Source: the human T2T-CHM13v2.0 reference genome, Homo sapiens. From it: 64,000 nucleotides of DNA. The translations under genes and the position numbers were made by a program. The notes under the pieces are model-generated. The model was not told the DNA's origin. It was given only the letters and a program-made list of their open reading frames with translations, and did no database searches. The stretch's first letter is position 1; each line of letters opens with the position of its first letter. Location: assembly GCF_009914755.1 (NCBI RefSeq), contig NC_060935.1, one strand, 5' to 3'. Positions 43,778 through 43,849 of this stretch are shown piece by piece.

Positions 43778-43849
43778 AATTTCAGACACTGGGATTTGGT
43801 ACAGTTACATGGCTTTTTAGACTTTGTGTCCCATGAACTAAGAGTTACT
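43778..43849 (-). CDS. TESMIN: Candidate TESMIN cassette exon ('6b') encoding [23 protein letters not shown](L), the N-terminal part of CXC1
   Basis: Acceptor ttttcttttttaatctttatag| and consensus donor |gtaagt. 72 nt, phase 2/2, matching exons 6 and 7. No stop codons. The peptide matches the LIN54/TSO1 KPCNCxKSxCLKLYC motif. Confidence 0.8.

What the first reader, a model, noticed from the sequence alone, without database searches (positions are those of the whole stretch)
43778..43849. Hidden 72-nt exon that restores the complete first CXC DNA-binding domain of TESMIN
Seen in sequence: joining exon 6 to exon 7 gives ...PKITLAG|[11 protein letters not shown]..., so CXC1 lacks its first three cysteines, whereas CXC2 ([21 protein letters not shown]) is complete. 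In unique DNA of intron 6 the - strand reads ttttcttttttaatctttatag|A GTA ACT CTT AGT TCA TGG GAC ACA AAG TCT AAA AAG CCA TGT AAC TGT ACC AAA TCC CAG TGT CTG AAA TT|gtaagt. It has a good polypyrimidine tract, a consensus donor, no stop, and phase 2 at both ends. Inclusion gives ...[48 protein letters not shown]..., a 532-aa protein. Established knowledge: this matches the CXC1 motif of LIN54 ([18 protein letters not shown]) and of TSO1/Mip120-type proteins, and LIN54's tandem CXC domains bind CHR DNA for MuvB/DREAM. Inference: the 508-aa sequence I recall as canonical skips this exon. TESMIN may therefore have an overlooked isoform with an intact CRC domain, acting as a sequence-specific DNA-binding subunit of a testis MuvB-like complex and switched on or off by one cassette exon. 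I cannot check whether a database already predicts this isoform.
Basis: partly seen in the sequence, partly recalled or inferred. Interest (0 to 1): 0.95.

Follow-up and report, generated by a model that had tools for sequence, protein, structure and literature searches.

The report
Unannotated conserved TESMIN coding exon
Inside a long intron of the human testis gene TESMIN lies an intact, very strongly conserved 72-base coding exon that would complete the protein's first zinc/DNA-binding module but is missing from the human RefSeq models, although the same exon is annotated in many other vertebrates.

Summary
Window 43778-43849 (- strand) is a 72-nt open segment with an AG acceptor, a pyrimidine tract, a GTAAGT donor and phase 2 at both ends. 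Inserted between 48824-48912 and 25961-26063, it turns the 508-aa RefSeq protein into 532 aa. None of the 11 RefSeq TESMIN models uses it.

It is not a chance ORF. It is the ortholog of an ancestral exon. LIN54's matching exon is also 72 nt, has the same phase and the same donor 9-mer. The exon is spliced into predicted tesmin proteins from sharks to mammals, including 17 placental protein clusters. It is the best conserved part of human TESMIN, with 24/24 residues identical to hyena, wolf, tree shrew, naked mole-rat and mouse lemur. It supplies Cys1-3 and six DNA-contact positions of CXC1.

Use in human tissue could not be tested. The MuvB role of TESMIN is already published for mouse. The mouse 475-aa form appears to lack the exon, yet it rescues fertility in knockout mice. 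I rate this a real human annotation gap with plausible regulatory meaning, of moderate interest and not categorically new.

The parts
43778..43849 (-). 72-nt candidate coding exon, phase 2 at both ends. It encodes [23 protein letters not shown] plus the split Leu codon, that is Cys1-3 and the N-terminal DNA-contact loop of CXC1.
   Evidence: Pfam TCR profile positions 1-13. PDB 5fd3 LIN54 match. Orthologs map here collinearly in 8 of 8 tblastn tests. 24/24 residues identical to five placental species.
43850..43871 (-). Acceptor AG with its polypyrimidine tract (ttttcttttttaatctttatag).
   Evidence: It is the only GTRAGT-donor candidate in the intron with at least 14/20 upstream pyrimidines.
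43772..43777 (-). Donor gtaagt. The 9-mer ATT|gtaagt is identical to the donor of the homologous LIN54 exon.
48824..48912 (-). Annotated upstream exon, ending ...PPKITLAG. It would be the donor for junction 48824>43849.
25961..26063 (-). Annotated downstream exon, starting YCDCFASG.... It encodes the rest of CXC1 (Pfam TCR profile 15-37), including the Tyr equivalent to LIN54 Tyr536.
20998..23531 (-). The two annotated exons (23394-23531 and 20998-21173) that encode the linker and the complete second CXC domain.
42972..43038 (-). Possible alternative 3' exon about 740 nt downstream. It has a cag acceptor and, read after the 72-nt exon, gives 21 codons and then TAG. It is 17/21 identical to the tail of mouse-lemur tesmin isoform X2, in which the 72-nt exon is spliced to this tail.

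Best explanation
Window 43778-43849 (-) is the human copy of an ancestral 72-nt coding exon shared by the LIN54/TESMIN family. It encodes the first third of the first CXC module: three of the nine zinc-binding cysteines and the loop that, in LIN54, contacts the DNA backbone. The sequence has stayed under purifying selection on the lineage to human. In placental mammals it behaves as a cassette exon, since both inclusion and skipping forms are predicted. Human RefSeq lists only the skipping form. Inclusion would give a 532-aa TESMIN with a complete tandem CXC (CRC) domain like the LIN54 DNA-binding domain, which is expected to bind CHR-type TTYRAA sites with both modules. Skipping leaves CXC1 with 6 of 9 cysteines and without most of its DNA contacts. 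By analogy with LIN54 single-domain constructs, the 508-aa form should bind such DNA far more weakly. It would still carry the C-terminal region that binds LIN9/MuvB in mouse. Shown here: the exon's anatomy, its orthology and paralogy, its conservation, and its fit to the domain. Inferred: that human cells splice it in, and the DNA-binding consequences. My confidence is about 0.9 that it is a genuine constrained coding exon and about 0.55-0.65 that it is used in human at a meaningful level. The overall figure below reflects the full statement.
For: (1) Anatomy: AG acceptor, pyrimidine tract, GTAAGT donor, frame kept, no stop. It is the only candidate of that quality in the 22.8-kb intron. (2) Paralogy: the human LIN54 exon encoding ...[14 protein letters not shown] is also 72 nt, has the same phase and the same donor 9-mer ATT|gtaagt, and is followed by an exon starting GTAYTGTGA. 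(3) Orthology: of the 107 hits, 104 carry the exact 13-mer [13 protein letters not shown]. Of these, 95 continue directly into YC[DE]CF (94 counted, plus P0046 read). The 95 include 17 placental clusters with 203 member sequences (wolf, African wild dog, fur seal, jaguar, stoat, hyena, clouded leopard, pygmy sperm whale, orca, tree shrew, pocket gopher, naked mole-rat, rabbit, sheep). They also include marsupials, echidna, turtles, squamates, birds, amphibians, coelacanth, lungfish, ray-finned fishes and sharks. Mouse-lemur isoform X2 carries the identical 24 aa. (4) Constraint: it is the best conserved exon of the conceptual human protein. It scores 24/24 against hyena, wolf, tree shrew and naked mole-rat, and 23/24 against Tasmanian devil and echidna, where the whole-protein values are 419/532 and 283/532. 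Human versus mouse lemur is 24/24, where the other nine exons pool to 419/504. A neutral simulation gives P(no amino-acid change and AG/GT kept) = 0.037 at 0.06 substitutions per site and 0.0046 at 0.10. (5) Function mapping: with the exon, a proxy (hyena X1, 532 aa) aligns without gaps to 5fd3 chain residues 8-132. A skip form aligns only from about residue 20-25. Pfam TCR scores 70.9 versus 54.1 bits. LIN54 Cys525/527/532 and the DNA-contact residues Asn526, Thr528, Lys529, Ser530, Lys534 and Leu535 all lie in the homologous exon and are identical in TESMIN. The only change is Leu531 to Gln. For LIN54 the tandem domain binds with Kd 430 nM. The single domains show no binding by fluorescence polarization, and DBD-C alone binds at about 500 uM (PMC4974476).
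Against: None of the 11 RefSeq human models, including 9 Gnomon models (7 XM, 2 XR) that capture other minor variants, contains the exon. This suggests low or restricted inclusion in the RNA data used. No haplorhine primate protein and no Mus or Rattus protein with the exon surfaced. However, no human TESMIN protein of any isoform surfaced or 17 either, so that blank is weak evidence. Eleven placental clusters are skip forms. The mouse 475-aa TESMIN-L appears to be a skip form. Evidence: the paper states nine exons with a 121-nt exon 3 (PMC7124961), and mouse isoform b has 277 aa up to ...PPKITLSG, which added to a 198-aa muroid C-part equals 475. Its cDNA transgene restores fertility in knockout mice (PMC9789103), so an intact CXC1 is not needed for the essential function in mouse. 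The exon side of the donor (ATT) is non-consensus, and the exon has no CpG, which lowers its neutral mutation rate. The substitution rates I set against the simulation are recalled, not computed.
Confidence: 0.62

Rival explanations
1. Fossil exon. The exon was functional in the mammalian ancestor and still is in many lineages, but it is no longer spliced in humans (or haplorhines). Its intact state reflects too little time or a low mutation rate.
For: No RefSeq human model uses it. No haplorhine protein with it was found. Rodent precedent: Peromyscus tesmin is a skip form and has also lost four residues, including two Cys, of CXC1. The mouse skip form is sufficient for fertility. At a small neutral distance, survival is not improbable: P = 0.19 at 0.03 substitutions per site. 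The exon has no CpG.
Against: The human exon is 24/24 identical to lemur, tree shrew, carnivores and naked mole-rat, with both splice sites intact. P is 0.037 or less if the exon has been neutral for 0.06 or more substitutions per site. The rest of human CXC1 (next exon) is also well kept, at 32/34 against hyena, wolf and lemur. That is unexpected if CXC1 as a whole were dispensable in this lineage, in contrast to Peromyscus.
Confidence: 0.22
2. The exon is used in primates mainly with the downstream alternative 3' exon (42972-43038). This gives a truncated protein of about 351 aa that ends after Cys1-3 and lacks the CRC domain and the MuvB-binding C-terminus, or gives an unstable transcript. 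In this reading it is a way of switching the gene product off and does not complete CXC1.
For: Mouse-lemur tesmin isoform X2 (350 aa) has exactly this structure. The human sequence keeps the acceptor, the frame and a stop at the same place, with 17/21 identity to the lemur tail.
Against: This reading does not explain the perfect conservation of the Cys/DNA-contact residues, which only make sense when joined to the rest of CXC1. In 95 of 104 proteins the exon is joined directly to YC[DE]CF (plus P0046 read). The tail exon is less conserved (17/21) than the 72-nt exon (24/24). No human RefSeq model has the tail exon.
Confidence: 0.12
3. Chance open segment with splice-like signals in an intron.
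For: 1,287 frame-preserving open AG...GT segments exist in the same intron.
Against: Collinear ortholog mapping in 8 of 8 tests. Genome-wide E = 6.8e-7. Identical exon length, phase and donor in LIN54. Exact complementarity to the missing part of the Pfam profile.
Confidence: 0.01

Closest known systems
Human LIN54 exon encoding ...[17 protein letters not shown] (chr4, T2T 86,266,4xx), part of the DNA-binding domain solved as PDB 5fd3
   Same: It is 72 nt, phase 2 at both ends, with donor ATT|gtaagt and a next exon starting GTAYTGTGAYTGCTT. It encodes Cys1-3 and the Asn/Thr/Lys/Ser/Lys/Leu DNA-contact positions of the first CXC fold. The TESMIN exon is identical at all of these positions.
   Different: LIN54 residue 531 is Leu where TESMIN has Gln, and the N-terminal 11 residues differ. 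I believe the LIN54 exon is constitutive in LIN54 mRNAs, but that is recalled. The chr4 transcript table was not available, so it was not checked here. The TESMIN exon is absent from all human RefSeq models.
Predicted tesmin isoforms that include the exon in other mammals (for example isoform X1 of Crocuta crocuta at 532 aa, Panthera onca, Mustela erminea, Callorhinus ursinus, Orcinus orca and Oryctolagus cuniculus; X3/X7/X8 of Canis lupus baileyi)
   Same: The 24 aa are identical or nearly identical, in the same position between ...PPKITLAG and YCDCF.... The hyena X1 has the same 532-aa length as the conceptual human protein.
   Different: These are automatic predictions in other species. I could not see what transcript evidence supports them. 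No equivalent human RefSeq record exists.
Mouse TESMIN-L / MTL5 (475 aa), the MuvB-associated meiotic factor (PMC7124961, PMC8386835, PMC9789103)
   Same: It is the same gene family and the ortholog. It binds LIN9, LIN37, LIN52, RBBP4 and MYBL1 but not LIN54, and it has been proposed to replace LIN54 in a meiotic MuvB complex (passages read).
   Different: By exon count and length arithmetic, the studied mouse protein lacks this exon. Its close relative Peromyscus also lacks four more CXC1 residues. The papers treat the CRC domain as a LIN54-like DNA-binding domain and do not mention the missing part in the passages I read.
Drosophila Tombola in the testis meiotic arrest complex (a tesmin/TSO1-family paralog of the somatic Mip120)
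   Same: It shows the same concept of a germline-specific CXC-domain paralog taking the LIN54 position in a MuvB-like complex. It is cited in PMC7124961 and PMC4974476.
   Different: It was not examined here. The comparison rests on those papers' statements and on recall. No cassette-exon control of the CXC domain is known to me for it.
MUSK exon 10 (a cassette exon that encodes part of a cysteine-rich domain and is skipped in human but not mouse)
   Same: It works in a similar way: skipping one small exon disrupts a cysteine-rich binding domain, and usage differs between species. I saw only the search listing and the start of the abstract for PMC4213890.
   Different: It is an unrelated protein and domain, and the species pattern is the reverse. 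It is an analogy only.

Membership tests
Tesmin/TSO1 CXC domain (Pfam PF03638, TCR), first module of a tandem CRC domain | Nine-cysteine pattern C-x-C-x4-C-x4-C-x-C-x6-C-x2/3-C-x-C-x2-C. | tested here: met
   With the exon, the conceptual human protein reads [30 protein letters not shown], which has 9 Cys in the same spacing as CXC2 ([31 protein letters not shown]). Without the exon, only the last 6 remain.
Tesmin/TSO1 CXC domain (Pfam PF03638, TCR), first module of a tandem CRC domain | Match to the Pfam profile over its whole length. | tested here: met
   The candidate exon matches profile 1-13 (14.7 bits, E 0.038) and the next exon matches 15-37 (20.5 bits). Each piece alone is below the 23.5-bit cut-off, but the two are complementary. 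The spliced human protein was not scanned because joined sequence may not be typed. As whole-protein proxies, hyena with the exon scores 70.9 bits and rhino skip form scores 54.1 bits.
Tesmin/TSO1 CXC domain (Pfam PF03638, TCR), first module of a tandem CRC domain | Gap-free alignment to the solved LIN54 DNA-binding domain, including the DNA-contact residues. | tested here: met
   Proxy P0041 aligns to 5fd3 chain residues 8-132 with E 1.3e-65. The exon alone gives E 0.012. The contact residues named in PMC4974476 section 8 are identical.
Tesmin/TSO1 CXC domain (Pfam PF03638, TCR), first module of a tandem CRC domain | Binds three zinc ions and binds CHR (TTYRAA) DNA. | not testable with these tools
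   This needs protein biochemistry.
Genuine coding exon of human TESMIN | Canonical splice sites, frame preservation, no stop. | tested here: met
Genuine coding exon of human TESMIN | Orthologous exon spliced into transcripts or proteins of other species, in the collinear position. | tested here: met
   In 8 of 8 orthologs mapped to the window, this is the only hit outside annotated CDS.
Genuine coding exon of human TESMIN | Purifying selection at the protein level on the lineage to human. | tested here: met
   24/24 residues identical against five placental species. Neutral simulation. There was no DNA-level test (dN/dS, PhyloCSF) because no other vertebrate genome was available.
Genuine coding exon of human TESMIN | Presence in a curated or predicted human transcript. 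| tested here: not met
   0 of 11 RefSeq RS_2025_08 models have it. Ensembl/GENCODE and UniProt could not be consulted. The protein searches returned no human TESMIN entry at all, so they do not settle the question.
Genuine coding exon of human TESMIN | Junction reads, cDNA or peptides from human tissue. | not testable with these tools
No paper holding the peptide string was found.
MuvB/DREAM-type complex subunit in the LIN54 position | Physical association with LIN9, LIN37, LIN52 and RBBP4. | not tested
   Published for the mouse 475-aa protein (PMC8386835; PMC9789103). Nothing is known for a form that contains the exon.

The most novel reading that the evidence does not exclude
Inclusion of the 72-nt exon is a regulated (stage-, sex- or species-dependent) switch. 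It would convert TESMIN between a LIN54-like MuvB subunit that reads CHR sites with two CXC modules and a MuvB-binding form with a crippled first module. Muroid rodents have given up the exon and further eroded CXC1. If so, all functional work so far (mouse knockout, rescue, interactomes) has characterised only the DNA-binding-impaired form. A full-CRC TESMIN that exists in humans and most other mammals would remain unstudied.
Probability: 0.25. Interest if true: 0.75.

Novelty: new member of a known kind. Interest (0 to 1): 0.5.

Why it matters
TESMIN is essential for male meiosis in mouse and has been proposed to replace LIN54 as the DNA-reading subunit of a meiotic MuvB complex. That proposal assumes a LIN54-like DNA-binding domain. 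The reference human protein, and apparently the mouse protein used in all experiments, lacks three of the nine zinc ligands and six of the named DNA-contact positions of the first module. A perfectly conserved exon that restores them means the human gene model is probably incomplete. It gives a concrete way to test whether and when TESMIN binds DNA as LIN54 does. It also affects variant interpretation in male infertility, because variants in this exon or its splice sites would currently be classed as deep intronic. Finally, it affects isoform choice in the cancer studies that over-express the 508-aa form.

Tried and rejected
Chance ORF: rejected.

Repeat-derived or duplicated sequence: rejected. 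There is no masked repeat at the site, and the only other genomic match is the LIN54 exon.

A processed retrocopy that might preserve an included mRNA: none seen. All 13 matches of hyena X1 in the human genome lie in TESMIN or LIN54.

Structured RNA or another gene on either strand: there are no Rfam matches in 40000-48000, and only short, meaningless ORFs around the site.

Literature: no paper holds the peptide string. There are no PhyloCSF+TESMIN or PhyloCSF+MTL5 papers. Searches on tesmin splicing, isoforms and DNA binding returned nothing about this exon. A breast-cancer long-read paper mentions only an alternative last exon of TESMIN (PMC11846448). Supplementary tables of these papers were closed and might list isoforms.

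Direct retrieval of full-length mouse or human TESMIN proteins failed. No human entry and no full-length mouse entry appeared, so the skip status of the mouse 475-aa form is inferred and was not read from sequence.

Ascertainment: one search was seeded with the exon itself and so favours inclusion forms. One search was limited to 133-423 aa and favours truncated forms. The 17 inclusion and 11 skip placental clusters are therefore not a frequency estimate.

Invariance of the 13-mer: the word-based search favours sequences that keep it. However, among the 34 of 138 stored proteins without the exact 13-mer, a fuzzy search found only one variant, P0049, which differs at the last residue at an alternative junction.
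Full report
1. THE OBSERVATION

There is a pyrimidine-rich tract and tatag, then 72 nt of open sequence, then gtaagt. I rebuilt the RefSeq Select coding sequence from its coordinates, which gives the 508-aa protein with the junction ...PPKITLAG|YCDCFASG.... Inserting the 72 nt keeps the frame (start phase 2, length divisible by 3). It gives 532 aa with ...[34 protein letters not shown]....

The chromosome annotation file lists 11 TESMIN models: two NM, seven XM and two XR. None has an exon here. The site is not in a masked repeat. Its only other match in the human genome is the paralogous LIN54 exon.

2. IS IT MORE THAN CHANCE?

Splice-like signals plus an open frame are common. 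The 22,760-nt intron holds 1,287 frame-preserving open AG...GT segments of 30-300 nt. Only 11 of them have a GTRAGT donor. Only this one also has at least 14 of 20 pyrimidines before the AG.

The homology evidence is decisive:
- Pfam's Tesmin/TSO1 CXC profile (38 positions) matches positions 1-13 in the candidate and 15-37 in the next annotated exon.
- A 532-aa hyena tesmin isoform searched against the whole human genome hits chr11:68739774-68739857, which is window 43774-43857 (E 6.8e-7).
- I mapped eight orthologs, from hyena to tinamou, onto the window. All eight place this segment collinearly between the annotated exons. It is the only hit outside annotated coding sequence.

3. WHAT IT IS

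The exon is ancestral. I took the human LIN54 locus from the reference. The LIN54 exon encoding ...[17 protein letters not shown] is also 72 nt and has the same phase. It ends in the same nine bases around the donor (ATT|gtaagt) and is followed by an exon beginning GTATTGTGATTGC..., against GTACTGTGACTGC... in TESMIN. The exon therefore predates the LIN54/TESMIN duplication.

The exon is annotated elsewhere. My last protein search used the exon region of mouse-lemur tesmin isoform X2, which had surfaced, 15 and carries the identical 24 residues.
- It returned 107 proteins. Of these, 104 contain the exact 13-mer [13 protein letters not shown], one has an altered last residue at an alternative junction, and two are skip forms.
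- In 95 of the 104, the exon runs straight into YC[DE]CF. In two birds it runs into YYDCF. Seven are truncated or diverge (for 94 of the 95; P0046 read).
- The inclusion forms comprise 17 placental clusters standing for 203 member sequences. The representatives are wolf X3/X7/X8, African wild dog, fur seal X1/X3, jaguar X1, stoat X1, hyena X1, clouded leopard X2, pygmy sperm whale, orca X1, tree shrew X4, pocket gopher, naked mole-rat X2, rabbit X1 and sheep.
- They also include marsupials, echidna, turtles, lizards and snakes, birds, frogs, a newt, a caecilian, coelacanth, lungfish, ray-finned fishes and sharks.
- Eleven placental clusters are skip forms: flying fox, black bear, pilot whale, red fox, Przewalski horse, deer mouse, a bent-wing bat, Damaraland mole-rat, hedgehog, mouse lemur and white rhino.
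- Both forms occur in close relatives and in one species (mouse lemur). By annotation, the exon is therefore a cassette exon in placentals.
- These counts are not frequencies, because one search was seeded with the exon and one search was restricted to 133-423 aa.

4. CONSTRAINT ON THE HUMAN COPY

Per-exon identity of the conceptual human protein to orthologs shows this exon as the best conserved.
- It scores 24/24 against hyena, wolf, tree shrew and naked mole-rat, and 23/24 against pocket gopher, sheep, sperm whale, Tasmanian devil and echidna.
- It scores 16/24 even against a shark.
- Whole-protein identity falls from 434/532 (wolf) to 212/532 (shark).

Within primates, human versus mouse lemur is 24/24 for this exon. 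The other nine coding exons pool to 419/504 (83%). None of those nine is fully identical.

I ran a simple neutral simulation on the exon plus its AG and GT. The chance of no amino-acid change with both dinucleotides kept is 0.19 at 0.03 substitutions per site, 0.037 at 0.06 and 0.0046 at 0.10. Which distance applies to which primate node is my recollection and was not computed. The exon has no CpG, so it mutates slowly.

My reading is that the exon was under coding constraint for most or all of the lineage to human. A recent loss of use, in apes for example, cannot be excluded.

5. WHAT THE 24 RESIDUES DO

I read sections 7 and 8 and other passages of the LIN54 structure paper (PMC4974476).
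- Each CXC fold holds three zinc ions with nine cysteines.
- An N-terminal loop contacts the DNA backbone through Asn526, Thr528, Lys529 and Ser530.
- A K(L/N)Y motif (Lys534, Leu535, Tyr536) binds the other strand and inserts the tyrosine into the minor groove.

Alignment to 5fd3 and the LIN54 exon sequence place Cys525, Cys527, Cys532 and all six of these non-tyrosine contact residues inside the homologous exon. TESMIN is identical at every one. The only difference in the 13-mer is Gln for Leu531. The tyrosine itself is the first full codon of the next, annotated exon.

With the exon, the hyena proxy aligns to chain residues 8-132 without a gap (E 1.3e-65). A skip form aligns meaningfully only from about residue 25 (E 2.3e-57). 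Pfam whole-protein scores are 70.9 and 54.1 bits respectively.

For LIN54, the tandem domain binds a CHR probe with Kd 430 nM. Each single module shows no binding in that assay, and the C-terminal module alone binds at about 500 uM.

By analogy, which is an inference, a TESMIN without the exon has one sound module and one module missing a third of its zinc ligands. It should therefore bind CHR-type DNA much more weakly than a TESMIN with the exon.

6. WHAT IS ALREADY KNOWN, AND WHAT ARGUES AGAINST A SIMPLE SWITCH

Mouse MTL5/TESMIN pulls down LIN9, LIN37, LIN52, RBBP4 and MYBL1 but not LIN54. It binds LIN9 through residues 443-475. The authors propose that it substitutes for LIN54 (PMC8386835, passages). 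This was confirmed by BioID and IP-MS (PMC9789103).

The mouse protein used in that work is the 475-aa TESMIN-L. The knockout paper states that Tesmin has nine exons and that exon 3 is 121 nt (PMC7124961). That matches the nine human coding exons without the 72-nt exon.

Length arithmetic agrees. Mouse isoform b (277 aa) ends exactly at ...PPKITLSG. Adding the 198-aa C-part of deer-mouse tesmin gives 475. I therefore infer that the mouse reference form skips the exon. I did not see its sequence.

That cDNA, expressed as a transgene, restores testis weight, spermatogenesis and litter size in knockout males. So in mouse the essential function does not need an intact first module.

Deer-mouse tesmin has in addition lost four CXC1 residues, including two cysteines. 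This suggests that muroid rodents have relaxed this module altogether. In contrast, the rest of human CXC1 is well kept, at 32/34 against hyena, wolf and lemur.

7. WHAT COULD NOT BE SETTLED

Whether human cells include the exon is open.
- Reads were not available.
- RefSeq has no model with it, although it has models for several minor variants. This argues for low or restricted inclusion.
- No haplorhine protein with the exon appeared. However, no human TESMIN protein of any kind appeared, even though the 306-aa RefSeq isoform 2 lay within the length range. The protein view seems blind to human entries, and the blank means little.
- I could not consult Ensembl/GENCODE or UniProt.
- I found no paper on the exon. 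Supplements were closed.

8. VERDICT

The segment is a genuine, ancestral, strongly constrained coding exon that completes the first CXC module. It is missing from the human RefSeq models and is already predicted in many other species. The MuvB context is known. The on/off switch idea is plausible but untested. It is tempered by the mouse rescue result and by the lack of any human transcript evidence here.

I class it as a new (human) member of a known kind and give it interest 0.5. The boldest reading is that a regulated exon decides whether TESMIN reads DNA like LIN54, and that mouse work has seen only the impaired form. I give that reading a probability of about 0.25.

Noticed in passing
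window 42972-43038 (- strand): A second unannotated exon-like segment lies about 740 nt downstream of the 72-nt exon. It has a cag acceptor and, read after the 72-nt exon, gives 21 codons and then TAG. It is 17/21 identical to the C-terminal tail of mouse-lemur tesmin isoform X2, in which the 72-nt exon is spliced to this tail. AATAAA/ATTAAA hexamers lie about 1 kb and 2 kb further on, at 41973 and 41017.
   Followed up: partly
stored proteins P0030 (Peromyscus) and P0023 (Mus isoform b): Deer-mouse tesmin lacks four residues, including two Cys, of the annotated part of CXC1. Length arithmetic (277 + 198 = 475) suggests the mouse 475-aa protein has the same C-part length. The first CXC module may be decaying in muroid rodents.
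   Followed up: partly
protein hits (for example P0079, P0085, P0111, P0114, P0119-P0121, P0124, P0132-P0135); GAL at window 1-1295: Fish and shark tesmin-type proteins are named 'spexin prohormone 2' or 'protein lin-54 homolog' by NCBI. One of them (P0124) carries both the CXC domain and the spexin domain PF15171, which looks like read-through or fused gene models. In human, the neighbour of TESMIN is GAL, which from recall is a member of the galanin/spexin peptide family. This hints at old conserved linkage.
   Followed up: no
No human TESMIN protein surfaced in any protein search, not even the RefSeq forms, although primate fragments (owl monkey, drill, tamarin, lemurs) did. Blanks about human isoforms in this database view are therefore uninformative.
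   Followed up: no
stored proteins P0076 (Leptosomus) and P0083 (Chunga): In two bird tesmin models the fourth cysteine of CXC1 is replaced by tyrosine (...CLKLYYDCF...). This could be a natural loss of a zinc ligand or a sequence or model error.
   Followed up: no
stored proteins P0049 (Macrotis X2) and P0004 (Ovis ammon): Some models carry unrelated sequence next to the exon junction. P0049 has about 29 residues between ...CLKF and YCDCF, and P0004 has intron-like sequence before YCDCF. This suggests alternative donor or acceptor use, or model errors, around this exon in other species.
   Followed up: no
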